From: an uncultured Pseudomonadales bacterium
GTDB taxonomy: Bacteria; Patescibacteriota; Microgenomatia; UBA1400; PJMF01
NCBI GenBank assembly: GCA_964609285.1
Contig: CAZSQY010000003.1
Location: 1-37,776 of the forward strand
Length of the DNA stretch: 37,776 bases
Direction: 5' to 3'
The notes below the pieces were generated by a model, which saw only the letters and a program-made list of their open reading frames with translations, ran no database searches and was not told where the DNA came from. A program made the translations under genes and the position numbers. Positions 1 through 23,508 of this stretch are shown in pieces (position 1 is the stretch's first letter; each line of letters starts with the position of its first letter).

Positions 1-764
1 TTAACTTCAATAATCTTCCAGCCGTTTGTTGTTTTAAACAAATCGACTCCAGCAATTTGATAATTAAGTGTTTGAGCTGCTTGTATAGCCAGTTCTGCTT
101 CTTCTTTATTGTATTGATAGCAAAAACCTTTAGCCCCAAGAGAAAGATTGTTCAAAAATTCTCTATCCTTACTTCTCACTCTTTGGATAGCAGCGACAAC
201 TTGATTATCAATAACAAACAAACGATAATCACCTTTATTTACTATAAATTTCTGAACCAACAGTCTTGGATAATTTTTAAAAATTTTTTGTAATTGTTTA
301 GCTTCTTTTACTAAAAAAACTTCTTCCCCTTGTGAGCTGAAAGTATTTTTGGCTACGCAGGGATAACCTATATCTGTGTTAATATCTTCAATTTGCTGTT
401 GAGTAGCGAAAAGTGAGTTAATAATTGGCAAAGAGCTATCAGCCAATTTTAGATATTCATAGCTTTTGCGGTCTATCCAGGGCGCTTCTTCTACAAAAGC
501 TTTATCTAAAACTGGAACTTTATGCTGTTTGCAATAGGCTGCTATGAGTGTTGAGAGCTCTGGATTATGCCAAGCACCTTTAATATAAATTGATTGAAAC
601 TGTTTAAGGTCTTTTCCTTGGTGCGCGATGATTGTTTTACTATTCAAATATTTGATACTGAGATTTTGATATTCAAGAATATTAACTTTAATGCTTAGTT
701 CTTTAGCAGTTGTTACTAAATCACGATGAGTTTGTTTAGTTTTTGAAACAATAATAGCAATCAT
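1..764 (-). CDS. RimK-type ATP-grasp ligase (alpha-L-glutamate-ligase-like); 3' end cut by the window edge
   Basis: Not in the ORF track because it has no stop inside the window. The reverse strand from ATG 764..762 is open to nt 1. It reads MIAIIVSKTKQTHRDLVTTAKEL...IGYPCVAKNTFSSQGEEVFLVKE...KGDYRLFVIDNQVVAAIQRV...YQIAGVDLFKTTNGWKIIEV, which is the RimK/ATP-grasp layout. Its ATG overlaps the TGA of the upstream gene (ATGA). Confidence 0.7.
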   Translation of the reverse strand, partial: MIAIIVSKTKQTHRDLVTTAKELSIKVNILEYQNLSIKYLNSKTIIAHQGKDLKQFQSIYIKGAWHNPELSTLIAAYCKQHKVPVLDKAFVEEAPWIDRKSYEYLKLADSSLPIINSLFATQQQIEDINTDIGYPCVAKNTFSSQGEEVFLVKEAKQLQKIFKNYPRLLVQKFIVNKGDYRLFVIDNQVVAAIQRVRSKDREFLNNLSLGAKGFCYQYNKEEAELAIQAAQTLNYQIAGVDLFKTTNGWKIIEV

Positions 765-1744
765 GCTAATGTAGATAGGTGGTTAATATCAGCAATTTGT
801 GTTAAATTCTTCACGTACTTTTGTTTATCTTGAGCAATAAAATGTGGCAGTTGCGGCTTAAAGTCAGCATTCATTTCCCTGGCTTTGTTCACATCTTCAG
901 TAGCAATTTTGCCATAATATAATCCCTCAACGTCAAAATTAGATTCTTTTAGATATTGCCAAACTTTAGCCATCCCTTCTAAATAGACAATACTCTTAGT
1001 AAAGCCGCCCGGTTCGCTAGTGTCATACAAGCCTCTTTTCATTTTGACTGTTAATCGCCAGGAGCGTAGTTCGTCTTTTAAATATTGATAAATAAACTCA
1101 TAGGTTTTAATAAAACTACTTTCTTGAGCTATGTTGGTAGCAAGATAGGTCAAGGCGTGATAATAGTCTAATTTGTAGTTGGCTGCTAATTGGGAATGGA
1201 AGCTAGCCAAACCCTCTTCCGTTGAAAGATAATTTGAGAATTCTAACTTGTCTTTTTTACCGTAAAAAGGTTGCTCTAAATAATTAAGCCTTCTTAAAAA
1301 GTGAGTGCCAATTTCATGATAGAGTGTAGATACAAACTGTTTTTCTCTATAGTCAAAGTCTTTTCTGAGTTTGAATTCGTTTTTATAAGTACTAGCTTTA
1401 CTAATGTGCCCTTCTATCCAGCTGACTTCAATTTTATCTTGAAGATCATTTTTGAGAATGAAATTCTCCAGCATTTCCATGCCCTGCTCAGCACTAATTT
1501 TCTGACCTTCCAGCTCGCGTAGTTCTTGCTCAGAGTATTGACTAAAAGCTTCATCTAAAATTTGTTTAGCCAGTTTTAAATACTTTTCTTTAGGTTCTCC
1601 ATATTTATGCAGTTTGTTTAATGTAATTAATTCCTTGTATTTAAACTGCGGATTATATTTGCAATTCTTGTCAAAGAATTTTTGTTTCTCTTCTTGAAGA
1701 TTAAGGGGTGTCATCTGTTGCACTAAACTCATAAAAACCTTCAT
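761..1744 (-). CDS. DUF1704 / MATCAP-type metallocarboxypeptidase-like protein ('QEGLA motif' family)
   Basis: 327-aa ORF. It carries the zinc-motif-like string YHEIGTHFLRR (H-E-x-x-x-H) and, about 35 aa downstream, STEEGLASFHS, which resembles the family's QEGLA motif. It is translationally coupled (ATGA) to the RimK-like gene. Confidence 0.65.
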   Translation of the reverse strand: MKVFMSLVQQMTPLNLQEEKQKFFDKNCKYNPQFKYKELITLNKLHKYGEPKEKYLKLAKQILDEAFSQYSEQELRELEGQKISAEQGMEMLENFILKNDLQDKIEVSWIEGHISKASTYKNEFKLRKDFDYREKQFVSTLYHEIGTHFLRRLNYLEQPFYGKKDKLEFSNYLSTEEGLASFHSQLAANYKLDYYHALTYLATNIAQESSFIKTYEFIYQYLKDELRSWRLTVKMKRGLYDTSEPGGFTKSIVYLEGMAKVWQYLKESNFDVEGLYYGKIATEDVNKAREMNADFKPQLPHFIAQDKQKYVKNLTQIADINHLSTLA

Positions 1745-1822
1745 TAGTTAATTGTGTTGGGCAGGTTAAATTAAATAAGCGATTGACTGTAATAGATCTA
1801 TAATAAGGAAATTGTAGCGGCT

Positions 1823-3100
1823 TTAGCTTGGTTTCTCAACTTTGACCAAGAAACCCGCCAGGTCGCGACGGCCGAGCTCAACTTTATGGCGGCTGCGATT
1901 GAGGCGTTTGGAAACAATCATAGTTGTTTCCACCCTTTCTTTATTGAGTTCAAACTCGACTTCTACTACCGGGACTTTGCCTTCTCCGGCTTCTTGTTGA
2001 TACCACAGCAAGTCTTCTAAATCGATTAATCCTAGATCTCGTGCCAGGTCACTAGCAAGAGCGCTGCGGTAGCGTCCGGTTTTGATTAAGGCCAAAACTT
2101 TTTCACTACGGGCATTATCGCCAAAAACAGTAACTTCTTCTTTGGGGTTAACAATGGTTAGACGTTCTTCTTCTGCTTCAAAATAGTTTTCTGCAAATAA
2201 GGCCTTAGCAATGCGCACCCCATGCTTGGAATTTAAAATATTCAAGTCCTCGACTCTTTCCAGTCGTTTACGCAGCCCTGCCTGGTTAGCGATTTGGATT
2301 GATAAGCCCGGGCGGTAATTTAGCTCTACTACCATAGGACCTTTGTCTTTGTGGATGAATAAATCAATGCCGGCAAAAACCAAATTAGCGGCATTAGCAG
2401 CCTTAACAGCTGTTAATAAAACTTGATCCCAAAAAGGAACTTGAATGCCGCGCAGTTCAGTTTCTGTACCGGGTAGGTAACGAATTAATTCAGTTTTATG
2501 AGCAGCGGCATAAGTAGTGAGGCCCGTACCAATATCAATACCCACACCCAACGCACCTTGGCTTTGATTGGCGCGACCCTCTGATTCTTCGGTGGGTAAG
2601 CGCATGTAAGCCATGATTGGAACACTGTTAAATACTACTACCCTGACATCGGGTGTACCTTTATAGGAATATTTAGTTAATTCAGGGTGGGCAATGATCC
2701 TCTCCTCAATAATCGCTTTAGGATTAGCTCCATGTGAGCTATATTGGCCTTCCAAAATGTCATAGCAGTGAATTCTAAGCTCTTCCTCACTCCAGCGGCG
2801 ATTAATAACATCAACCCAGACATCTCCTGACTTTTTTTTAAAAGCTACCACACCTTTACCGGCGTGTCCGTTAGTCGGCTTAATCACAAAGTTTTTTTCT
2901 AAATGGTGCCAATTAAAGTCATTGACATCTTCAATAGTGGCTAAAATTCCATACACATCTGCAGTGGGGATCCCTTCATTTAAAAGTAATACCTTGGTAG
3001 CGTATTTAGAATGACAAATACTTTTAGCCCGTTGAGGGTTGCGTGATACATAAAGCCGGTTGCGGGCATTCATGCCCAAGATATCACTCGGATTGATCAT
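1823..3100 (-). CDS. alpha-L-glutamate-ligase-like ATP-grasp enzyme with a C-terminal retropepsin-like (RimB/'Zn_protease'-type) domain
   Basis: 425-aa ORF. The N-terminus ILGMNARNRLYVSRNPQRAKSICHSKYATKVLLLNEGIPTADVYG is typical of the alpha-L-glutamate ligase-related family. ATP-grasp body elements include FVIKPTNGHAGKGV and GIDLFIH...VVELNYRPG. The C-terminal ~110 aa (KVLALIKTGRYRSALAS...ELGRRDLAGFLVKV) aligns with the AKVDTGARTSALHA...LLGR..L.g.flVD pattern of RimB-like proteins. Confidence 0.75.
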   Translation of the reverse strand: MINPSDILGMNARNRLYVSRNPQRAKSICHSKYATKVLLLNEGIPTADVYGILATIEDVNDFNWHHLEKNFVIKPTNGHAGKGVVAFKKKSGDVWVDVINRRWSEEELRIHCYDILEGQYSSHGANPKAIIEERIIAHPELTKYSYKGTPDVRVVVFNSVPIMAYMRLPTEESEGRANQSQGALGVGIDIGTGLTTYAAAHKTELIRYLPGTETELRGIQVPFWDQVLLTAVKAANAANLVFAGIDLFIHKDKGPMVVELNYRPGLSIQIANQAGLRKRLERVEDLNILNSKHGVRIAKALFAENYFEAEEERLTIVNPKEEVTVFGDNARSEKVLALIKTGRYRSALASDLARDLGLIDLEDLLWYQQEAGEGKVPVVEVEFELNKERVETTMIVSKRLNRSRHKVELGRRDLAGFLVKVEKPS

Positions 3101-4094
3101 CGCCAGCTGGATAATTGAGCTTATCTGTGCCCAGAATAGAGCTGAAGCGCGCTAATTCTAGCAGTCTTAGACCTGAATATCGGCCTATTAAGTAATTGAC
3201 TACAGCCGTGGCGAGCAGAGTTAATTCCGGCTGTAGCAGAACAAATCTTTGTACAGCCTCCTGGCTGATAATGAGTGAGCAGACGATGGCAATTAACAGG
3301 GTTTCTAATGTTATTTTTAAGGCCTCTTTTTGACTGTTAAATAACTGCGAATTCATAAAATTCTCTGAAAGTAAAATCAGAATCAGTATTGGGAAGATGC
3401 TAACAGTTAATAGGGAGAAAAGCTTTAACTGAGATGCAAAGATCAGCATTATTAAAATAAAAACTGATACTCCCCATAAAATCATTGATGTTCTGGGTAG
3501 ATAGGGAAATCTAAAAGCCTTAACAATTTTACGGGTGATAATGGCTCCGATTAATACTGCCACAAAAATGATCACCCCGGAGACTATTTCTGTTGAGACA
3601 AAAGCCACTGATAAAACTGCTGGGATATAAATTCCAAAACCCCTTAAGCCAACAATATGGCGAGAAATAGCTATGATTGAAGCAATTAAAGGGAAAAGCA
3701 ACAGTAAAACGATAATATTGGCTGATAAGCCTTTATCCACTGCATTGCGAATTGCATGTTGTAAAAAATTGTGCCAGGTTAAAGGTCCAATTTCAGTTTC
3801 AAGTAAGAAAGTTGAAAGCCTACCGCGATTTTCGCCGCTAGTTTCAGTAATATCTTCAGCTCTTTTTTCTCTAAGAAGTTGATCCAGTTGGGCTGCAGGT
3901 GAAGCTTCAGCTGAGGCAGTGGCTGAATCAGTCGCTACTGGTTCTAGTTCAATGATTTCTTCAGCTTCATCTGTTTCAAAACCGGCTTCTTGATTGTTTG
4001 TTTGAGGTATTTGTCCCTGGATTGGTTGGGGTTGAGTTAAGCCTAAAGTTAAAAGTAAAGTTAGAAGAGCCAAACCACCAAAGATTTTTTTCAT
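3084..4094 (-). CDS. secreted-N-terminus, roughly 7-TM membrane protein ('7TM_transglut'-like, without a transglutaminase domain)
   Basis: 336-aa ORF with a signal peptide (MKKIFGGLALLTLLLTLGL), an acidic low-complexity linker, and a ~200-aa block of consecutive hydrophobic helices. It overlaps the downstream ATP-grasp gene by 17 nt. The family assignment rests on gene context and topology, not on a run search. Confidence 0.55.
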   Translation of the reverse strand: MKKIFGGLALLTLLLTLGLTQPQPIQGQIPQTNNQEAGFETDEAEEIIELEPVATDSATASAEASPAAQLDQLLREKRAEDITETSGENRGRLSTFLLETEIGPLTWHNFLQHAIRNAVDKGLSANIIVLLLLFPLIASIIAISRHIVGLRGFGIYIPAVLSVAFVSTEIVSGVIIFVAVLIGAIITRKIVKAFRFPYLPRTSMILWGVSVFILIMLIFASQLKLFSLLTVSIFPILILILLSENFMNSQLFNSQKEALKITLETLLIAIVCSLIISQEAVQRFVLLQPELTLLATAVVNYLIGRYSGLRLLELARFSSILGTDKLNYPAGDDQSE

Positions 4095-4161: not shown

Positions 4162-4524
4162 TTACAAGATTTTTTTAAGCAGATTTTGAATAAAACTAAT
4201 AATAAAAGAAACCACTAGTAATGTGCCAAATTTGCCAAGTCTGACCCCTAATAAAATCATGGGAGAAATTTGTAAGCCCGGAACTAGAAAAGTGGCCAGC
4301 CATAGGATAAAAACATTTATGACTAAGGAAAATAAGCCTAAAGTAACAATATTAATTGGTAGAAAAAATATTTTTAGCACTGGTTTTACCACTGCTTGCA
4401 GCAAGGTCAAAACCAGACTGGCTAAGATTAAAGTGATAAGGTTTAGATACCCAATAGTGGGCAAGAGCCAGGCTAGAATAGCTAACGTAATGGCTGTAAT
4501 AAGAATGGAGCGAATAGGTTTCAT
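4162..4524 (-). CDS. small 4-TM membrane protein, DUF360 / phage-holin-4-like
   Basis: 120-aa ORF, almost entirely hydrophobic. The central LPINIVTLGLFSLVINVFILWL segment resembles DUF360 family proteins. Confidence 0.5.
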   Translation of the reverse strand: MKPIRSILITAITLAILAWLLPTIGYLNLITLILASLVLTLLQAVVKPVLKIFFLPINIVTLGLFSLVINVFILWLATFLVPGLQISPMILLGVRLGKFGTLLVVSFIISFIQNLLKKIL

Positions 4525-4664: not shown

Positions 4665-4886
4665 ATGTCAAAGCGAACAGAAATGCCCTCCAATCCTTTA
4701 ACATATATAGACTATGAAGACGCAGGGAGATTGCAATCTTTAATCGAAGGTGGTCTTTCTGGGCCTTTTTTTAAAGCATTGGTGCAGCAAGCCGCTAATC
4801 AAGGAGGTCAGGCAGAAAAGGATTTGCGAGAAATTTTAGAAACAGCTCGTTCTTTTCCGAGTATTAGAAATCTTTTAAAAGGTTAA
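4665..4886 (+). CDS. hypothetical small protein (73 aa)
   Basis: An ORF in an otherwise empty interval. It has no obvious Shine-Dalgarno sequence, and its stop overlaps the uvrC stop (convergent). I recognise no motif. Confidence 0.35.
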   Translation: MSKRTEMPSNPLTYIDYEDAGRLQSLIEGGLSGPFFKALVQQAANQGGQAEKDLREILETARSFPSIRNLLKG

Positions 4887-6256
4887 TCTGTTAGTTTTTT
4901 CCTCCTTAACCGGCCGTGCTGCTTTTTAGCAAACCGGTGTGATTCGTCACGAATTTGTTGGACTAAATGCAGTGTGGGATGATCTTCAGGCAAACGAATA
5001 ATCTCATAACTAATTTTTAAACGATGTGTTTTTTTATCAGTAAAAATTTTGCTTGGCACCACCAGCCGATCCGGGTTTTTAGCAATCCCAATGACCGGCG
5101 CAGCCCAGTCCCAAACAGTTAAAGCCGCTCTCACCTGCCCTTTGCCTCCGTCTACCACAACTAAATCAGGCTTACCCCAATCCGGGTGTTTTTGCCGGCG
5201 GCTAATGGCTTCTTTAAGCATTTGATAATCATTAGGAGTGTCTAAGCTGCGAATATTAAATAAACGATAATTTTTTTTGTCCGGCAAGCCATGGCTAAAG
5301 CAAACCATTGAGACTGCTGCATTTTTCCCCATAATATTACTGACATCATAGCCCTCAATTCGTTTTAAACGATATTGGCGCGGTAAATCTGCCACATCAA
5401 TTAAAATTTTGCGCAAATGATCTAAAGCATTGCGATTAGCATTATCGTGTAAAGCTGGTAAGATTAGGTCAGGTTTTAAGCGATATTTTTTGCTAGTGAC
5501 ATCTTGAATTAGGTCAATTTTATACTTAACTTCGCCGGCTTGTTCAAATTTAAGCTCATCAGCTAGTTTTTTCATTTTTTTCTCCAAATTGCGCAAGACG
5601 GTTTTCTTTTTGCCTCTTAAAAATAAAATGAGATTATCTAAATTTTCCGCATAATTTTTCGGGGGAATTTTGCCTATACAGGCGCCGGGGCACAAATCAA
5701 GATGGTAGTAAAAACAGGCCTGGCTATGAGTTTGCAATTTTTTATAAGCTTGCTTTGGACTTACTTTGTTTTTAGCCCGTTCAGAAGCTTTATCACACCA
5801 AGGAAAAATACGCCGAGCTATTTTTAAAACCTGTCTAAGTTTGTAAGCACTGCGGAATGGTCCTAGAATGGAGCCGCCCAAGTTTCGTTTAAGAATGTCA
5901 AGCTTGCGGACCAAATTTAACTGGGGAAAGACATCATCAGTGATTTGAACATAAACCGGACTTTTATCATCTTTAAGCAAGACGTTATATTCTGGTTGGT
6001 GAAGTCGGATCAACTCAGCTTCAATTAAAAGCGCTTCCATTTCACTCTCTAAAACTTCAAATTTAAGATGAGTGGCTTGCCGAATCATTTCTTGCTTGCG
6101 TGGAGATAAGCGGCGCAATTGACTATAAGATTTGACGCGCTTTTTTAAATTTTTGGCTTTGCCGACATATAAAACTTGATTATTAGCTGCGGCGTTTAAA
6201 AACCAGTAAACTCCCGGCTGTGACGGCAGCGATGAGAGCGAAGATTCCCAATCCAT
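4883..6256 (-). CDS. uvrC: excinuclease ABC subunit C, short form lacking the C-terminal (HhH)2 domain
   Basis: GIY-YIG motif (PGVYWF...VLYVGKAKNLKKRV), a Cys cluster (CFYYHLDLCPGAC), a UVR motif (LADELKFEQAGEVKYKIDLI), the UvrC RNase-H-like region (IEGYDVSNIMG...VVDGGKGQ) and the motif IRDESHRFA near the end. I placed the start at the ATG giving MDWESSLSSLPSQPGVYWF, which leaves the usual ~14 aa before GIY-YIG. The track ORF extends to 6349. Confidence 0.85.
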   Translation of the reverse strand: MDWESSLSSLPSQPGVYWFLNAAANNQVLYVGKAKNLKKRVKSYSQLRRLSPRKQEMIRQATHLKFEVLESEMEALLIEAELIRLHQPEYNVLLKDDKSPVYVQITDDVFPQLNLVRKLDILKRNLGGSILGPFRSAYKLRQVLKIARRIFPWCDKASERAKNKVSPKQAYKKLQTHSQACFYYHLDLCPGACIGKIPPKNYAENLDNLILFLRGKKKTVLRNLEKKMKKLADELKFEQAGEVKYKIDLIQDVTSKKYRLKPDLILPALHDNANRNALDHLRKILIDVADLPRQYRLKRIEGYDVSNIMGKNAAVSMVCFSHGLPDKKNYRLFNIRSLDTPNDYQMLKEAISRRQKHPDWGKPDLVVVDGGKGQVRAALTVWDWAAPVIGIAKNPDRLVVPSKIFTDKKTHRLKISYEIIRLPEDHPTLHLVQQIRDESHRFAKKQHGRLRRKKLTD

Positions 6257-8072
6257 AGATGAACTGAGGCGACTTGAGGTCAAATTTGCTCCACTGCTGA
6301 GGTTTGAATTTGATGGGTTTGATAGTTTTAACTGTGACTGTTTGCTCATAGTGATAATCCTGATTTTGCAGGCTTAATTGTAACGTATCTTCTTTTGCTA
6401 ACCAGTGGTGTGGATTAAATACCTGTAGTTCTAACTTTTTTTTCTGCCATGGAAGAATAGCAAAGGTTTGATCACTGATCTGCGTAACCACTGCTTGATT
6501 GGGGCTGGTTAAATCGAGTTGATTTTGATGCCAAGCTTGGCCGGTGTGATTAATTATGGCAAGTTCATACCAACTTGGCAGTGGTATGAGGTTAAATAAT
6601 TTACGTTGATGAAGCTTGAATTCAAAATCAGCTTCTACTTGAGGAAACTGATCACCAAAAGCAACTTGGATATCTTTAGTTTCTTGATTAGGTAATTTGT
6701 AATCACCGGCAGCCAGAGGGTATTTGCTAGATTTGCCATTATAGGCAAATACGATGTGCTTTAGATCAAATTGAGTGAAATAATCTACGCCTTTCATGGT
6801 GTTGGCCCAAGTTGGATCCACTGGAATCCACTCTTGGGTTTGTTGGTTGTAATACTCAGGCCAAGCATGTAAAACATCTCTCACTAAGCTTAAGGGTTGA
6901 AGCGTGGGATCATTGCTGTGAGCATAACCTGTCGCCCTGCGGGCGGGAATAGCATTGGCTCTCGCTAGAGCAATAAATAGATCTGTAAACTCTTGACAAG
7001 TGGCTTGATCGGGTTGTTTTAAAGCTTGAACTGCTCCCATCCGCTTAAATTGTTGATTCAGATCCTGGTCAGTGTATTGCAGTGTGTCTACTACATAGTG
7101 ATAAATTTTTTCTGGAGTGGATAGATCAAAGGCTAGATTTTGAATTTGCTCCTGGTTGACTTCCCAGAATTGCTGCTGATTAAGATGGCTAGGTAATGGT
7201 TCGGGATTAAGCCAAGGATGAAGGGGCCTCAAACTGATTAAGGCATCGGCTTGAATATTAACTTCTACTGTTTCATTGGCTGGTAAATAATAAGTGGCAA
7301 TCCAATTTCCATCCTCATCTTCTTCAATATTTTGTGGGCGAGGCTCGAGCTGATGATAATGAATTTTTTGCAAAGGTGTATCTGGTGGCAAACTCACTTG
7401 AGTAATAGCAGCTTGGTTGTGCGGATTATCTAAGTGATAACGTAACGTTAAATTAAAAATTTGTTGCTCGCCAAAAATAGCTGAAATTCCTTGTTCATGA
7501 ATGTCACTATATGTCAGAGTAATATTGTTATTATCAATCTTCATTTCATAATTTTCCGGAGAGATGCGGGTTGGACGGCCAAACCGTAGCGGTGTGACTA
7601 AAATTACTTGGTGATGATTGTAATCTGCTTCGCTGGACATGGCTGGAATATGGGCTTCTAAAACTTGACCATTGACTTGGGCAATTTGCGGATTGAGGTA
7701 GGTGATGCTGAATTTACGAATTTTATCTTTACCTACCAGCTTGTCATCGAACTCAATCTCAATTTCCGTAAAACCGTTTTCTTGATTAGTATCAGGATCA
7801 ATAATTTGGCCGCCAGTGATGACGCGGATGTTAGAAATGTCGCTAGAATTAAGGGTTAAGCCATATTTGCTAATGTAATATTCCGGAGTAAGATTGCGTA
7901 TTTCAAAGGAGTGTTCTACTCTAGTGACGCCGGCTAAATCTACACTGTAAGTAGTAGTTAAATCAGTATAAAAATGCTCTTTGGTTTGAGCCTGAGCTGG
8001 ATGCTGAATGATGATAAAAAGCAAACAAGCAATAACTAAAGATAAAAATTGTTTGATTTTTTTTGACATCAA
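6183..8072 (-). CDS. secreted, C-terminally membrane-anchored transglutaminase-like cysteine protease/cross-linking enzyme
   Basis: 629-aa ORF with a signal peptide (LSLVIACLLFIIIQHPAQA). A Cys-His-Asp triad is present in the usual context: QATCQEFTDLF, DVLHAWPEYY and WIPVDPTW. A C-terminal TM helix (IYGLGIFALIAAVTAGSLLVF) is followed by KRRS. Confidence 0.75.
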   Translation of the reverse strand: MMSKKIKQFLSLVIACLLFIIIQHPAQAQTKEHFYTDLTTTYSVDLAGVTRVEHSFEIRNLTPEYYISKYGLTLNSSDISNIRVITGGQIIDPDTNQENGFTEIEIEFDDKLVGKDKIRKFSITYLNPQIAQVNGQVLEAHIPAMSSEADYNHHQVILVTPLRFGRPTRISPENYEMKIDNNNITLTYSDIHEQGISAIFGEQQIFNLTLRYHLDNPHNQAAITQVSLPPDTPLQKIHYHQLEPRPQNIEEDEDGNWIATYYLPANETVEVNIQADALISLRPLHPWLNPEPLPSHLNQQQFWEVNQEQIQNLAFDLSTPEKIYHYVVDTLQYTDQDLNQQFKRMGAVQALKQPDQATCQEFTDLFIALARANAIPARRATGYAHSNDPTLQPLSLVRDVLHAWPEYYNQQTQEWIPVDPTWANTMKGVDYFTQFDLKHIVFAYNGKSSKYPLAAGDYKLPNQETKDIQVAFGDQFPQVEADFEFKLHQRKLFNLIPLPSWYELAIINHTGQAWHQNQLDLTSPNQAVVTQISDQTFAILPWQKKKLELQVFNPHHWLAKEDTLQLSLQNQDYHYEQTVTVKTIKPIKFKPQQWSKFDLKSPQFIYGLGIFALIAAVTAGSLLVFKRRS

Positions 8073-16845: not shown

Positions 16846-18540
16846 ATGGCAATTACTATTCGCGTTGACCGTCAAAAAATTGAAGCTGAGAACGATCAAA
16901 ATTTACTCGATCTTTTAAAAAACAACCAAATTAATCTACCTGAGTTTAGTGCTCAGCTGCCTTCTGGTCGTAGTATTACCTCTGCCCTGGTGGAAGATAT
17001 CCAAACGCAGCAAGTTAAACCTGCGGCAGAAATTCAAGTTAAAGACAGGATGAGAATCGGGCTTAATTCCGGTGCTGCGCGCCAGCAGCGGCAAGAAGCA
17101 TTACGGCTGATTAAATTTCACCATTTACAATCTTGCCCCACTTGCCGGCAAGGCACTGCCTGTGATTTTATTCATCAGCTTAATCAGTATTTTGATTATG
17201 ACTTAATTATCAGCCAGGAAAAGAAATTAAAACTCCACCCTATGGCCCAAGCGGCTGAGCTCGATCCAGCCATTTGTATTGGTTGCAATAAGTGTGTTGA
17301 AGCTTGCGACCAAATCGGTATAGGTTTTTTAAAATTAGAAGTAGAAGGATGCAACAAACATGTTGCTATTAGTCAGGATGGAAAAGTTGATTGTATTTAT
17401 TGCGGACAGTGCACTGTGGCTTGTCCGGTCAAAGCTGCTCGCGAGCAATCCCAAATACAACAAGTCGAAGAGATATTGGCAGACGAGAATTTAATCACGA
17501 TTGTGCAGATGGCCCCGTCGGTCCGCGCCAGTATTGGTGAAGAGTTTGGCCAAGAAGTTGGTCTTAATTTGGAAAAGAAAATGTTTACTGCTTTTCGTCA
17601 ACTGGGTTTTGATTATATTTTTGATGTTAACATGGGCGCAGATATTACCACTTTGGTAGAGGCACAAGAGTTAGTGGATCGGCTTGAAAATAATGGCAAG
17701 CTGCCGATGTTTACTTCTTGCTGCCCGGCCTGGGTTAAGTTTTTAGAGTTTTATTATCCCGAAATGTTAGAGTATTTAACTGATGCTCGTTCGCCTCAAA
17801 TTCATTCTGGTGGAGCTTATAAAACTTGGTGGGCACAAAAAGTTGGGATTGATCCGAAAAAGATTAGAGTAGTTTCGATTATGCCTTGTACTTCAAAAAA
17901 ATATGAGGCACGGCACGAGAAACTGCAAATAGATGGCATGTGGCCAGTTGATGCTGTTTTAACCACCCGTGAAACCGCTTATTTATTAAAGAAAAACCAA
18001 ATTGATTTGCCTAGTTTACAAGATGGTGAACTGGATGAGTTTGGTCAATACTCCGGAGCTGGTGTGATTTACGGAGCCTCCGGCGGTGTCATGGAGTCTG
18101 CTTTGAGAACAGCGGCTAATTTAATGGAGGGCAAAGATTTATCCAAATTTGAGTTTGAAGTAGTGCGTGGCATGGAGGGTATTAAAAAAACAGAAGTGAA
18201 ATTTAATGGTCAAGTTCTTAAAATAGCCGTGGTGCAGATGGCTAAGAACATGCACAAAATTATTAAAGAAATCAAAGCTAATCCGCAAGCTTACCACTAT
18301 GTTGAGTTTATGGCCTGTCCGGGTGGTTGTATAGGCGGGGGTGGTCAACCTCAGCCCGCCAGCGATGAAAAGACGGCCAAGCGCATTCAAGGTTTATATG
18401 CAATTGATGATGTTATGGAGGTTCGCCAAGCCCATCAAAACAAAATGGCTCAGGAGTTTGTAAATTATGCTCAAGCCACTGAAGAAAAGCAGGGAAAATT
18501 ATTGTACACACATTACTCTAAAAAGAAAAAATTTGAGTAA
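16846..18540 (+). CDS. [FeFe]-hydrogenase catalytic subunit (HydA-like, multi-cluster form)
   Basis: H-cluster motifs FTSCCPAWVKF, MPCTSKKYEA and EFMACPGGCIGGGGQP. Two ferredoxin-type motifs, CIGCNKCVEAC and CIYCGQCTVACP. A His-ligated cluster motif, HLQSCPTCRQGTAC. Confidence 0.9.
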   Translation: MAITIRVDRQKIEAENDQNLLDLLKNNQINLPEFSAQLPSGRSITSALVEDIQTQQVKPAAEIQVKDRMRIGLNSGAARQQRQEALRLIKFHHLQSCPTCRQGTACDFIHQLNQYFDYDLIISQEKKLKLHPMAQAAELDPAICIGCNKCVEACDQIGIGFLKLEVEGCNKHVAISQDGKVDCIYCGQCTVACPVKAAREQSQIQQVEEILADENLITIVQMAPSVRASIGEEFGQEVGLNLEKKMFTAFRQLGFDYIFDVNMGADITTLVEAQELVDRLENNGKLPMFTSCCPAWVKFLEFYYPEMLEYLTDARSPQIHSGGAYKTWWAQKVGIDPKKIRVVSIMPCTSKKYEARHEKLQIDGMWPVDAVLTTRETAYLLKKNQIDLPSLQDGELDEFGQYSGAGVIYGASGGVMESALRTAANLMEGKDLSKFEFEVVRGMEGIKKTEVKFNGQVLKIAVVQMAKNMHKIIKEIKANPQAYHYVEFMACPGGCIGGGGQPQPASDEKTAKRIQGLYAIDDVMEVRQAHQNKMAQEFVNYAQATEEKQGKLLYTHYSKKKKFE

Positions 18541-23073: not shown

Positions 23074-23508
23074 TCAAATTTTTTGAGACAATTCTTTAGA
23101 CCAGGCTTCAATTTTTTGCTCATTTTCTTCTTCATCAGGAAACCCATCAATTTTAAGAGTTGTGACAATGGTCTTTCCTCCTAATTTAGTAAAAGTTCCT
23201 TCTAAAATATCAGCTGCCTCACAGAAATCCGGGTAGTTGCTGTCACCCAGACCAAAAATGGCCAGTTTTTTACCGGCTAAATCAGCCTCTAGTCCCTCGA
23301 CAAAATCTCGGAAATCTTGTTGCAGTAAACCGTCATCCCAAGTAGATGAACCCAAAACTAAGACATCATACTCGGTTAAATCTTCCGGGCTGGTATCTGC
23401 GACATCCTGTAGCGAAACTTCATGATCTTTCAAAGAATCCATAATTTCTTCAGCCACCATTTCTGTATTGCCTGTGGTGGAGCCATATACAATGAGTATT
23501 TTACTCAT
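23074..23508 (-). CDS. short-chain flavodoxin
   Basis: 144-aa ORF with the FMN phosphate-binding loop KILIVYGSTTGNTE and the motif GSSTWDDG. Confidence 0.9.
   Translation of the reverse strand: MSKILIVYGSTTGNTEMVAEEIMDSLKDHEVSLQDVADTSPEDLTEYDVLVLGSSTWDDGLLQQDFRDFVEGLEADLAGKKLAIFGLGDSNYPDFCEAADILEGTFTKLGGKTIVTTLKIDGFPDEEENEQKIEAWSKELSQKI

What the first reader, a model, noticed from the sequence alone, without database searches (positions are those of the whole stretch)
1..4094. Composite operon: 7TM protein, ATP-grasp/retropepsin-like fusion, MATCAP-type carboxypeptidase and RimK-type ATP-grasp
Seen: four co-directional minus-strand genes joined by a 17-nt overlap, one 78-nt gap and an ATGA overlap. 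They are a secreted-N-terminus ~7-TM protein (3084-4094), an ATP-grasp with the alpha-L-glutamate-ligase-like N-terminal signature (1823-3100), a DUF1704/MATCAP-type metallopeptidase (761-1744) and a second, RimK-type ATP-grasp (1-764, truncated by the window).

Established: comparative genomics (the amidoligase survey by Iyer, Aravind and co-workers) predicted two kinds of peptide-tagging or peptide-synthesising system, neither with a known substrate. One is a trio of '7TM + alpha-L-Glu-ligase-like + retropepsin-like peptidase'. The other is a pair of 'RimK-like + DUF1704'. RimK itself adds Glu residues to the C-terminus of ribosomal protein S6. Eukaryotic DUF1704 (MATCAP) removes the C-terminal Tyr that the ATP-grasp ligase TTL adds to tubulin.

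Inference: both modules are merged here into one transcription unit. That suggests a membrane-coupled cycle in which two ligases add C-terminal or side-chain amino acids and one carboxypeptidase trims them. The target protein or peptide is unknown. I do not know of this combined architecture being characterised.
Basis: partly seen in the sequence, partly recalled or inferred. Interest (0 to 1): 0.8.

Follow-up and report, generated by a model that had tools for sequence, protein, structure and literature searches.

The report
Membrane-linked amino-acid ligase and trimming operon
A tiny uncultured bacterium (Patescibacteria) carries a conserved gene cluster that pairs a membrane protein and glutamate-ligase-like enzymes with a bacterial cousin of the human tubulin-trimming enzyme MATCAP. 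This variant of the recently described Pseudomonas Rlo stress-tolerance system appears not to have been described before.

Summary

- **Retropepsin fusion.** Pfam does not detect it, but it is real: AF2 pLDDT is 92.7, the 50 Foldseek matches listed are almost all retropepsin-like proteases, and an HMM of DTGA-bearing relatives scores E=5e-25. It is catalytically dead. The catalytic Asp is Lys340 here, and Asn or Lys across the family.
- **MATCAP-like protein.** It keeps the HExxxH and EEG motifs and is 30% identical to human MATCAP.
- **Conservation.** Among 75 non-redundant related Patescibacteria (Microgenomates/Pacebacteria-type) loci, 7TM, ATP-grasp/retropepsin and MATCAP are always adjacent (48/48 and 52/52). 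A PF04020 membrane protein precedes them in 44/45.
- **RimK-type gene.** It is optional. It is absent from 95%-identical relatives, and some extra ATP-grasp gene occurs in 25/45 loci.
- **Fusions.** An 800-aa ATP-grasp + retropepsin + MATCAP protein and several retropepsin + 7TM proteins found elsewhere support functional coupling.

Best reading: an Rlo/Rim-like ligation-and-trimming cycle at the membrane, probably using glutamate. MATCAP would be the working peptidase, and the dead retropepsin domain would be kept as a binding or activating module. The substrate is unknown. The 7TM protein's own Glu-terminated tail is one candidate. I class this as a new variant of a known kind.

The parts
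4162..4524 (-). 120-aa four-helix membrane protein of family PF04020 (named 'Phage_holin_4_2'). It is probably the first gene of the conserved block and lies 67 nt upstream of the 7TM gene.
   Evidence: Pfam 1.6e-22. It sits directly upstream of the 7TM gene in 44 of 45 non-redundant related loci. It has no PHROGs or PADLOC match. Its role is unknown.
3084..4094 (-). 336-aa RloB-like 7TM membrane protein. It has a signal-peptide-like N-terminus, an acidic low-complexity segment of about 100 aa, a 7TM core (residues ~125-320) and a cytoplasmic tail ending in DDQSE. It has no transglutaminase domain.
   Evidence: PF14402 2.9e-27. It matches only the C-terminal 7TM part (positions 314-506 of 508) of NCBIfam RloB, at 66.7 bits against a 900-bit cut-off. 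AF2 pLDDT is 74 and the model is helical across the core. No PDB fold match was found. It is always adjacent to the ATP-grasp gene (48/48).
2180..3100 (-). RloC-like ATP-grasp domain (residues 1-307) of the 425-aa protein. It is alpha-L-glutamate-ligase-like.
   Evidence: PF14397 1.6e-60. TIGR02291 scores 238.7 bits, below its 314-bit cut-off. The ELN Mg/ATP motif region is conserved among 117 homologues. No solved structure is detectable by sequence.
1826..2167 (-). Retropepsin-like (RimB/RloA-like) C-terminal domain (residues 312-425) of the same protein. It is predicted to be catalytically inactive: the pseudo-active-site loop reads I-K340-T-G-R (nt 2063-2086). The G-R-x-D motif is retained (nt 1859-1876).
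   Evidence: AF2 pLDDT 92.7. The 50 Foldseek PDB matches listed are almost all retropepsin-like proteases: DDI1, Rickettsia APRc, HTLV-1/EIAV/foamy-virus proteases and DUF785 2pma (TMq up to 0.67), plus three plasmepsin-type pepsins low in the list. An HMM of 54 DTGA-bearing standalone relatives scores E=5e-25 and aligns K340 under the catalytic D. The family column is N83/K30/S3/D1. Relatives pass Pfam PF05618.
761..1744 (-). 327-aa MATCAP/DUF1704-type metallocarboxypeptidase. It has no signal peptide. Its HEIGTH motif (residues 143-148, nt 1301-1318) and TEEGLA motif (residues 175-180, nt 1205-1222) are intact.
   Evidence: PF08014 3.1e-25. phmmer against human MATCAP/KIAA0895L (7z5g) gives E=8.9e-36, with 30% identity over 312 aligned residues. 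H, E, H, E-E-G are invariant in 33 homologues. It lies directly downstream of the ATP-grasp gene in 52/52 loci.
1..764 (-). RimK-type ATP-grasp ligase. The first 254 residues are present and the gene is cut by the window edge. Its start overlaps the MATCAP stop (ATGA).
   Evidence: PF08443 1.7e-29, TIGR00768 3.7e-34. E. coli RimK 5zct scores E=3.2e-11. A full-length orthologue (288 aa) occupies the same position in L005. The gene is optional: absent in L001-L003, while an extra ATP-grasp of some type occurs in 25/45 loci.
1811..1839 (-). Sigma-70-like promoter match (TTGAGA-17-TACAAT, 10 of 12) at the end of the ATP-grasp gene, upstream of the MATCAP gene. It could be an internal promoter.
   Evidence: Consensus scan only. 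The total number of matches in the region (23) is close to the shuffled expectation (17.7 +/- 4.2), so this is weak evidence.
6183..8072 (-). 629-aa secreted, C-terminally anchored transglutaminase-core protein with Cys359/His402/Asp419 present. It is a syntenic neighbour, and whether it belongs to the system is uncertain.
   Evidence: PF01841 8e-17. The motifs ATCQEF, HAWPEYY and VDPTW were located. It is present upstream in 34/38 loci, directly next to the PF04020 gene in L018/L023, and absent in L033, L055, L062, L089 and L092.

Best explanation
This is a Patescibacteria (Microgenomates/Pacebacteria-type) version of the Rlo/Rim kind of system. It would work as a membrane-associated cycle that adds amino acids, most likely alpha-linked glutamate, to a C-terminal carboxylate and trims them off again.

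**Proposed roles.**
- **ATP-grasp enzyme.** The RloC-like ATP-grasp works at the cytoplasmic face of the RloB-like 7TM protein.
- **Retropepsin-like domain.** The C-terminal RimB/RloA-like domain has lost its catalytic Asp. It is kept as a dimerising, ligase-activating or acidic-peptide-binding module.
- **MATCAP-like enzyme.** The cytoplasmic metallocarboxypeptidase has taken over the opposing trimming step, so the balance of ligase and peptidase sets tail length.
- **RimK-type ligase.** It is an optional second ligase that changes or extends what is added.

**Shown here.**
- The gene families.
- The dead active site.
- The intact MATCAP motifs.
- The invariant adjacency of the three core genes.
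- The existence of fused versions.

**Inferred.**
- The amino acid used.
- The direction of the chemistry.
- The interaction between the ATP-grasp enzyme and the 7TM protein.
- The role of the dead domain.
- The acceptor, which is unknown. Candidates are the 7TM protein's own Glu-terminated tail, a free Glu-rich peptide destined for export, or another protein.
For: **Families and motifs.**

**Dead retropepsin domain.** An HMM of DTGA-bearing relatives finds no other retropepsin-like ORF in the 37.8-kb window.

**Conservation.** The order 7TM, ATP-grasp/retropepsin, MATCAP holds in 48/48 and 52/52 non-redundant loci, with median gaps of 5 and 2 nt. It persists where the flanks differ (L089/L092; L095).

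**Fusions.**
- P0433 (800 aa) joins ATPgrasp_ST (1.1e-68), PF05618 (3e-09) and MATCAP (4.4e-43). It sits next to a PKD-7TM gene, three more ATP-grasp genes and a second MATCAP gene.
- Retropepsin + 7TM fusions exist, and one of them lies next to an ATPgrasp_ST gene.

**Extra ATP-grasp genes.** Several types occur inside or beside the cluster in 25/45 loci. In L102 one lies between the ATP-grasp/retropepsin gene and the MATCAP gene.

**Literature.**
- RloA cleaves Glu-rich sequences, and deleting rloB or rloC suppresses the rloA1-3 triple-mutant defects (PMC12239564).
- RimB removes Glu from polyglutamylated S6, needs Asp31, and separately stimulates RimK (PMC11957791).
- MATCAP/TMCP enzymes remove C-terminal Tyr and Glu and act as deglutamylases. 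They use HExxxH plus an EEG motif (PMC10499314).
Against: - There is no biochemical or expression evidence for these proteins.
- The amino acid is inferred from family resemblance only. TIGR02291 and TIGR00768 score below their curated cut-offs.
- Pfam labels PF14397 as 'sugar-transfer associated'.
- Much of the adjacency could be inherited synteny within one bacterial class. The block also contains uvrA, uvrC and mnmA.
- A promoter-like site lies in the gap before the MATCAP gene, so the cluster may not be one transcript.
- In Pseudomonas, and in the retropepsin-7TM fusions, the peptidase acts outside the cytoplasm. Here both peptidase-type modules are cytoplasmic, so the analogy with Rlo is incomplete.
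Confidence: 0.55

Rival explanations
1. Synthase-exporter model. The ATP-grasp enzyme(s) build a free Glu-rich peptide or polymer in the cytoplasm, and the 7TM protein passes it to the cell envelope, as the Pseudomonas genetics suggest for RloBC. The MATCAP-like enzyme only edits or recycles the product in the cytoplasm.
For: - In Pseudomonas, loss of the secreted RloA peptidases is suppressed by deleting cytoplasmic RloC or membrane RloB. This implies a product that crosses the membrane.
- Retropepsin-7TM fusions place an intact peptidase on the outer face.
- The outer N-terminal part of the 7TM protein varies between lineages: inactive transglutaminase, PKD, retropepsin or an acidic segment. 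That fits contact with the envelope.
- In L095 and L097 the cluster lies next to or near a class A PBP gene.
Against: - The 7TM model matches no known transporter or channel fold.
- In this lineage no peptidase-type module is extracytoplasmic.
- No product is known even in Pseudomonas.
Confidence: 0.3
2. Two unrelated systems that merely sit together. The RimK-type enzyme glutamylates ribosomal protein S6 as in E. coli, the MATCAP-like enzyme is a general peptidase, and the 7TM and ATP-grasp genes do something separate.
For: - The RimK-type gene is absent from the closest relatives.
- Its best solved relative is E. coli RimK.
- The block is embedded in conserved housekeeping synteny.
Against: - The RimK start overlaps the MATCAP stop.
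- ATP-grasp genes of at least four types recur at this spot, in both orientations, and once between the two core genes.
- The triple fusion P0433 and the multi-ligase cluster L095 tie MATCAP to the RloC-like ligase.
- Proteobacteria also pair an ATP-grasp with MATCAP.
Confidence: 0.1
3. The ligases modify a non-protein molecule, such as a surface polysaccharide, a peptidoglycan-like precursor or a glutamylated cofactor. This would follow the Pfam label 'sugar-transfer associated' and the RimK relatives MptN and CofF.
For: - The name and original context of PF14397.
- Weak NCBIfam matches to MptN, CofF and LysX.
- Mur-ligase genes occur near some loci.
Against: - No glycosyltransferase or cofactor-pathway gene lies in the conserved block.
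- The partner enzymes, MATCAP and the retropepsin domain, are peptide hydrolases.
- The Mur-ligase neighbour is on the opposite strand and is not conserved.
Confidence: 0.08

Closest known systems
Pseudomonas aeruginosa rloABC operon (Lormand et al. 2025, mBio, PMC12239564)
   Same: It has a 7TM membrane protein of the same family (PF14402, the RloB C-terminal half) next to a TIGR02291/PF14397-type cytoplasmic ATP-grasp (RloC) and a RimB-like retropepsin module.
   Different: - RloB carries a periplasmic inactive transglutaminase domain that is absent here.
- RloA is a separate, secreted, active peptidase. Here the retropepsin is fused to the ligase, cytoplasmic and lacks the catalytic Asp.
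- rloABC has no MATCAP gene and no second ligase.
- RloB was reported as 96% proteobacterial. This system is in Patescibacteria.
RimK/RimB (rimABK) and RimBK hybrid enzymes (PMC11957791)
   Same: An alpha-L-glutamate ligase is paired or fused with a retropepsin-like domain. RimB both trims poly-Glu tails and stimulates the ligase, which gives a precedent for a non-proteolytic role.
   Different: - Known RimBK hybrids have RimB at the N-terminus of a true RimK and are proteolytically active. Here the domain is C-terminal to an RloC-type ligase and is dead.
- Those systems have no membrane partner and no MATCAP.
Eukaryotic tubulin-tail cycle: TTL/TTLL ligases with MATCAP/TMCP carboxypeptidases (PMC10499314; PDB 7z5g, 7z6s)
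   Same: ATP-grasp ligases oppose a MATCAP-family metallocarboxypeptidase that acts on acidic C-terminal tails. The catalytic domain here is 30% identical to human MATCAP over its whole length, and the HExxxH and EEG motifs are kept.
   Different: - The system is bacterial and has no tubulin.
- The ligases are of the RimK/RloC type, not TTL/TTLL.
- It is coupled to a 7TM membrane protein.
- The substrate is unknown.
Proteobacterial ATP-grasp + DUF1704/QEGLA pair (example: Photobacterium sp. DA100, locus L015)
   Same: A GshB/RimK-like ATP-grasp gene lies immediately upstream of, and co-directional with, a MATCAP-family gene.
   Different: - The proteobacterial peptidase is only ~23% identical, is fused to an FGase domain, and carries QEGLA where this one has EEGLA.
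- It has no 7TM or RloC-like partner.
- TIGR02421 scores 103 bits against a 339-bit cut-off for the window protein.

Membership tests
RloABC system | RloB: 7TM domain of family PF14402 | tested here: met
   PF14402 scores 96.2 bits against a 25-bit cut-off, over residues 127-320.
RloABC system | RloB: N-terminal inactive transglutaminase domain | tested here: not met
   Only positions 314-506 of the 508-position RloB model are matched, at 66.7 bits against a 900-bit cut-off. The N-terminal 125 residues are a signal-like helix plus a low-complexity acidic segment with no Pfam hit.
RloABC system | RloC: cytoplasmic alpha-L-glutamate-ligase-like ATP-grasp (TIGR02291) | tested here: inconclusive
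   The alignment to TIGR02291 is full-length (E=7.4e-71), but 238.7 bits is below the 314.2-bit cut-off. PF14397 is clearly met.
RloABC system | RloA: separate secreted retropepsin with a catalytic Asp | tested here: not met
   The domain is fused to the ligase, has no signal peptide, and carries Lys at the Asp position. No other retropepsin-like ORF occurs in the window.
Retropepsin-like peptidases (clan AA; Pfam PF05618 Zn_protease/RimB-like) | Retropepsin fold | tested here: met
   AF2 pLDDT is 92.7. The Foldseek matches listed are nearly all retropepsin-like, with probability 0.99-1.00 and TMq 0.44-0.67.
Retropepsin-like peptidases (clan AA; Pfam PF05618 Zn_protease/RimB-like) | Sequence membership in PF05618 | tested here: inconclusive
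   There is no direct Pfam hit. Homology is transitive: the domain profile finds DTGA-bearing proteins at E down to about 1e-19, and these pass PF05618. The reverse HMM scores E=5e-25.
Retropepsin-like peptidases (clan AA; Pfam PF05618 Zn_protease/RimB-like) | Catalytic Asp in the D-T/S-G motif | tested here: not met
   The motif is K340-T-G here, and the family column is N83/K30/S3/D1. Of 136 motif-bearing representative relatives, 120 have D. RimB D31E is already inactive (PMC11957791).
MATCAP / DUF1704 (PF08014) | Profile match above the curated cut-off | tested here: met
   The score is 89.4 bits against a 27-bit cut-off. Human MATCAP scores E=8.9e-36 across the whole catalytic domain.
MATCAP / DUF1704 (PF08014) | HExxxH metal and catalytic motif plus the EEG third-ligand motif | tested here: met
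   HEIGTH lies at residues 143-148 and TEEGLA at 175-180. Both align to the human motifs and are invariant in 33 homologues.
MATCAP / DUF1704 (PF08014) | Carboxypeptidase activity on Tyr- or Glu-terminated acidic tails | not testable with these tools
   This needs an enzyme assay.
TIGR02421 QEGLA-motif protein (proteobacterial subfamily) | Score above the equivalog cut-off, and the QEGLA motif | tested here: not met
   The score is 103.4 bits against a 338.65-bit cut-off, and the motif reads EEGLA.
RimK family (TIGR00768 / PF08443) | Profile match | tested here: inconclusive
   PF08443 is met (103.2 bits against a 21-bit cut-off). TIGR00768 scores 118.3 bits against a 143.4-bit cut-off, but the protein is truncated by about 35 residues at the window edge.
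RimK family (TIGR00768 / PF08443) | Glutamylation of the ribosomal protein S6 C-terminus | not testable with these tools
   No rpsF gene lies in the window, and this needs an assay.
RimBK hybrid enzymes | RimB domain N-terminal to RimK, proteolytically active | tested here: not met
   Here the domain is C-terminal to an RloC-type ATP-grasp and lacks the catalytic Asp.

The most novel reading that the evidence does not exclude
The substrate may be built into the system. In this lineage the cytoplasmic C-terminal tail of the 7TM protein is genetically Glu-terminated. It ends in E in 121 of 159 unique proteins, in EE in 66 and in EEE in 57. Here the tail reads ...DDQSE.

On this reading:
- the dead retropepsin domain, descended from poly-Glu-cleaving peptidases, reads and holds that tail without cutting it;
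- the ATP-grasp ligase(s) lengthen it;
- the MATCAP-like enzyme shortens it.

This would be a bacterial membrane-protein counterpart of the tubulin-tail code, using a close relative of the human eraser enzyme. The four sampled lineages whose retropepsin keeps its Asp have 7TM tails that do not end in Glu (L095, L097, L099, L100).
Probability: 0.2. Interest if true: 0.85.

Novelty: new variant of a known kind. Interest (0 to 1): 0.62.

Why it matters
**Origin of the tubulin-tail enzymes.** MATCAP was identified only in 2022-2023 as a eraser of the tubulin tail code. Its bacterial relatives have no known function. Here a 30%-identical bacterial MATCAP is locked into an operon with glutamate-ligase-like ATP-grasp enzymes, and in one lineage it is fused to one of them. 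This is the same writer/eraser logic as TTL/TTLL versus MATCAP, so it gives an experimentally tractable prokaryotic model for where that logic came from.

**Extension of the Rlo system.** The Rlo system affects osmotic tolerance, cell shape and antibiotic resistance in Pseudomonas. RloB, its membrane component, was reported to be 96% proteobacterial. This work extends the system to Patescibacteria, where it appears in every related locus sampled.

**A natural experiment.** In this lineage the retropepsin partner has died and a metallocarboxypeptidase sits beside it. That suggests which activities are essential. It also points to a non-proteolytic role for the retropepsin domain, matching the second function reported for RimB.

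Tried and rejected
1. **Pfam on the C-terminal 125 residues at E<=10:** no peptidase hit.
2. **A profile of that domain against PDB sequences:** only a spurious homeobox match at E=0.36. hhalign against HIV-1 protease aligned only LALIKTGR with EALLDTGA, which is not significant. The homology was settled instead by structure prediction, fold search and the large profile search.
3. **Exact look-up of the window's MATCAP protein:** not on record, so the missing end of the RimK gene could not be recovered from the source contig.
4. **Genome-contig scan with a single protein:** only 4 loci. The metagenome scan with an alignment gave 79.
5. **AF2 model of the 7TM protein (pLDDT 74) against PDB:** nothing better than E=1.1, so there is no clue to transport or channel function.
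6. **RloC-like ATP-grasp against PDB sequences:** no hit.
7. **The Iyer et al. 2009 survey:** not held. Searches for DUF1704 or MATCAP together with ATP-grasp or Patescibacteria found no paper.
8. **Does a 7TM tail not ending in Glu predict absence of MATCAP?** Rejected. L101 (tail ...IIER) and L102 (tail ...IIEKKS) both keep MATCAP.
9. **~260-aa ORFs downstream of MATCAP in L033 and L062:** suspected to be divergent ligases, but they are TruB.
10. **Defence-system or phage origin:** no PADLOC hits. PHROGs gave only generic ATP-grasp matches.
11. **Rfam:** only three tRNAs in the window.
12. **Membership of the upstream transglutaminase-core protein:** left open. It is syntenic in 34/38 loci but absent from the most divergent ones.

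Full report
**Observation.** The junctions are a 17-nt overlap, a 78-nt gap and an ATGA stop/start overlap.

Profile HMMs confirm every family call:
- PF14402 7TM_transglut, 2.9e-27.
- PF14397 ATPgrasp_ST, 1.6e-60, with TIGR02291 'alpha-L-glutamate ligase-like' at 7.4e-71.
- PF08014 MATCAP, 3.1e-25.
- PF08443 RimK, 1.7e-29.

Names attached to homologues place the window in Patescibacteria (Microgenomates, Pacebacteria and Woesebacteria labels). The rest of the window is ordinary chromosome. It carries uvrB, uvrA and uvrC, an [FeFe]-hydrogenase, pyruvate kinase, purA/purB and three tRNAs.

**The retropepsin-like fusion is real but dead.** Pfam finds nothing in the last ~120 residues of the 425-aa protein, even at E<=10. 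A profile of the domain finds nothing meaningful among PDB sequences. However, the domain is strongly conserved in 117 homologues. It folds with pLDDT 92.7. Almost all of the 50 Foldseek PDB matches listed are retropepsin-like proteases: DDI1, Rickettsia APRc, HTLV-1, EIAV and foamy-virus proteases, and the DUF785 protein 2pma. The only others are three plasmepsin-type pepsins low in the list.

A profile search of 1.84 billion representative proteins found 212 relatives. Of the 136 that carry a recognisable motif, 120 have the canonical AK[IV]DTGA, and several pass Pfam PF05618 Zn_protease/RimB-like. An HMM built from 54 such standalone proteins hits only this domain in the six-frame translation of the window (E=4e-23). 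It aligns Lys340 under the catalytic Asp. Across the window's own family that column is N83/K30/S3/D1. The GR-x-D motif is kept.

RimB D31E is already inactive (PMC11957791). I therefore conclude that the domain cannot be an aspartic protease. No other retropepsin-like ORF exists in the window.

**The MATCAP-like protein looks active.** It aligns over its whole length to the catalytic domain of human MATCAP/KIAA0895L (7z5g, E=8.9e-36; 30% identity over 312 residues). It keeps HEIGTH and TEEGLA, the HExxxH and EEG motifs that define the active site of the human enzymes (PMC10499314). Both motifs are invariant in 33 homologues. It has no signal peptide by inspection. It is more distant from the gammaproteobacterial QEGLA subfamily: about 23% identity, and TIGR02421 well below its cut-off.

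**Comparative genomics.** I gathered about 100 related loci and annotated them with the window proteins as queries. Loci were de-duplicated to 75 unique MATCAP sequences, and only those with enough flank were counted.

| Feature | Count |
|---|---|
| ATP-grasp/retropepsin gene directly upstream of MATCAP | 52/52 |
| 7TM gene upstream of that | 48/48 |
| PF04020 four-helix membrane-protein gene upstream again | 44/45 |
| Transglutaminase-core gene further upstream | 34/38 |
| Extra ATP-grasp gene anywhere in or beside the cluster | 25/45 |
| Extra ATP-grasp gene directly downstream of MATCAP | 18/45 |
| Same, and co-directional as in the window | 12/45 |

Median intergenic distances inside the core are 5 and 2 nt. 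The usual block is uvrA, transglutaminase, uvrC, PF04020, 7TM, ATP-grasp/retropepsin, MATCAP, (variable ligase), mnmA.

The RimK-type gene is absent from relatives whose ATP-grasp is 95% identical. The extra ligases are of several types: RimK-like, R2K-like, ATP-grasp_4 and another. They occur in either orientation, and in L102 one sits between the two core genes.

The core survives changes of flank. L089 and L092 have glutamate dehydrogenase and a DsbA-like gene upstream instead of the uvr block.

**Fusions and variant architectures.**
- P0433 (800 aa) is a single chain of ATPgrasp_ST (1.1e-68), PF05618 retropepsin with DTG intact (3e-09) and MATCAP (4.4e-43). Its locus L095 reads: PKD-7TM, the triple fusion, ATP-grasp, ATP-grasp, a second MATCAP (575 aa), ATP-grasp.
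- Other lineages have a 7TM gene plus an ATP-grasp/retropepsin fusion with DTG intact and no MATCAP (L097/L098).
- Others have a signal-anchored, DTG-intact retropepsin fused to the outside end of the 7TM protein. In L099 this lies next to an ATPgrasp_ST gene (L099, L100).
- In Photobacterium, a GshB/RimK-like ATP-grasp directly precedes an FGase-MATCAP fusion.

The four component types are therefore repeatedly linked by adjacency and by fusion across distant lineages.

**What is known experimentally.**
- In P. aeruginosa, rloABC encodes a secreted retropepsin (RloA) that cleaves Glu-rich sequences, an inactive-transglutaminase-7TM protein (RloB) and an ATP-grasp (RloC). The defects of the triple rloA mutant in osmotic tolerance, shape, biofilm and antibiotic resistance are suppressed by deleting rloB or rloC (PMC12239564).
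- In P. fluorescens, RimK polyglutamylates ribosomal protein S6. RimB trims the tail and, separately, stimulates RimK. RimBK hybrids have RimB at the N-terminus (PMC11957791).
- Human MATCAP/TMCP enzymes remove C-terminal Tyr and Glu and act as deglutamylases (PMC10499314).

**Most likely mechanism (confidence about 0.55).** This is an Rlo/Rim-like cycle at the cytoplasmic face of the membrane. The RloC-like ATP-grasp, sometimes helped by a second ligase, adds amino acids, probably Glu, to a C-terminal carboxylate. The MATCAP-like carboxypeptidase removes them. The dead retropepsin domain is retained for a non-catalytic job such as dimerisation, ligase activation (as RimB does for RimK) or holding an acidic peptide.

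The families, motifs, dead site, linkage and fusions are shown here. The amino acid, the acceptor, the contact with the 7TM protein and the role of the dead domain are inferred.

**A lead on the acceptor.** The cytoplasmic tail of the 7TM protein ends in Glu in 121 of 159 unique family members, in EE in 66 and in EEE in 57. The equivalent figure is 27 of 120 for the ATP-grasp proteins, and Glu is not among the six commonest last residues of the MATCAP proteins. In this window the tail is ...DDQSE, encoded inside the 17-nt overlap.

Within loci, a non-Asp retropepsin is paired with an E-terminated 7TM in 35 of 38 scorable cases. The four sampled lineages with an intact Asp have tails ending in A, N, K or R. 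This fits the idea that the tail is the ligase's acceptor, or the ligand of the dead domain. However, the pattern is confounded by shared ancestry, and L101 and L102 are exceptions. I give it about 0.2.

**Rivals.**
- A synthase-exporter that makes a free Glu-rich product for the envelope, as the Pseudomonas genetics hint (0.3). The 7TM model gave no fold match that would help decide.
- Two unrelated systems side by side (0.1). This is contradicted by the fusions and by the recurrent ligase slot.
- Modification of a sugar or cofactor (0.08). No such genes lie in the conserved block.

**Novelty.** Every family is known, and the ligase-plus-peptidase logic has been characterised in Rim, Rlo and the tubulin cycle. 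Four things I could not find described:
- the invariant 7TM + RloC-like/dead-retropepsin + MATCAP unit of Patescibacteria;
- its variable extra ligase;
- the triple fusion;
- the loss of the catalytic Asp alongside the presence of MATCAP.

I class it as a new variant of a known kind.

Noticed in passing
window 6183-8072 (-): A 629-aa secreted, C-terminally anchored transglutaminase-core protein with Cys/His/Asp present. It overlaps the start of uvrC and is conserved between uvrA and uvrC in 34/38 related loci. In L018 and L023 it lies directly next to the PF04020 gene, with no uvrC between them. Pseudomonas RloB carries an inactive transglutaminase domain that the 7TM protein here lacks, so a link is conceivable but unproven.
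   Followed up: partly
window 3087-3101 (7TM C-terminal tail) and homologues: The 7TM protein's cytoplasmic tail ends in Glu in 121/159 unique family members, often as EE to EEEE. This resembles the S6 tail that RimK extends and the acidic tails that MATCAP trims.
   Followed up: partly
window 761-1744 (-): This Patescibacteria MATCAP-like protein is closer to human MATCAP (30% identity, E=8.9e-36) than to the gammaproteobacterial QEGLA subfamily (~23%). This may bear on where the eukaryotic enzyme came from. No phylogeny was made.
   Followed up: no
L095 1870-10678: An expanded cluster in another uncultured bacterium: PKD-7TM, an 800-aa ATP-grasp + retropepsin + MATCAP fusion, two ATP-grasp genes, a second 575-aa MATCAP-related protein and a further ATP-grasp. 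All are co-directional.
   Followed up: partly
protein P0462 (539 aa): A class I lysyl-tRNA synthetase (PF01921, 2.3e-84) carries a C-terminal DTG-intact RimB-like retropepsin domain (PF05618, 4.1e-06). This is an unexpected fusion. A gene-calling artefact has not been excluded.
   Followed up: no
window 4665-4886 (+): A 73-aa ORF with no family match lies on the opposite strand in the 358-nt gap between uvrC and the PF04020 gene, followed by a terminator-like hairpin at 4752-4765 (+). In the 95%-identical relatives this gap is only 54 nt.
   Followed up: no
L005, L006, L007 (genome contigs records): The public titles call these assemblies 'uncultured Pseudomonadales bacterium'. Their gene content and closest relatives are Patescibacteria, so the labels are probably wrong.
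   Followed up: no
window 16846-18540 (+): An [FeFe]-hydrogenase large-subunit-like gene with ferredoxin domains (PF02906, 3.4e-84) in this small-genome bacterium. A flavodoxin gene lies at 23074-23508.
   Followed up: no
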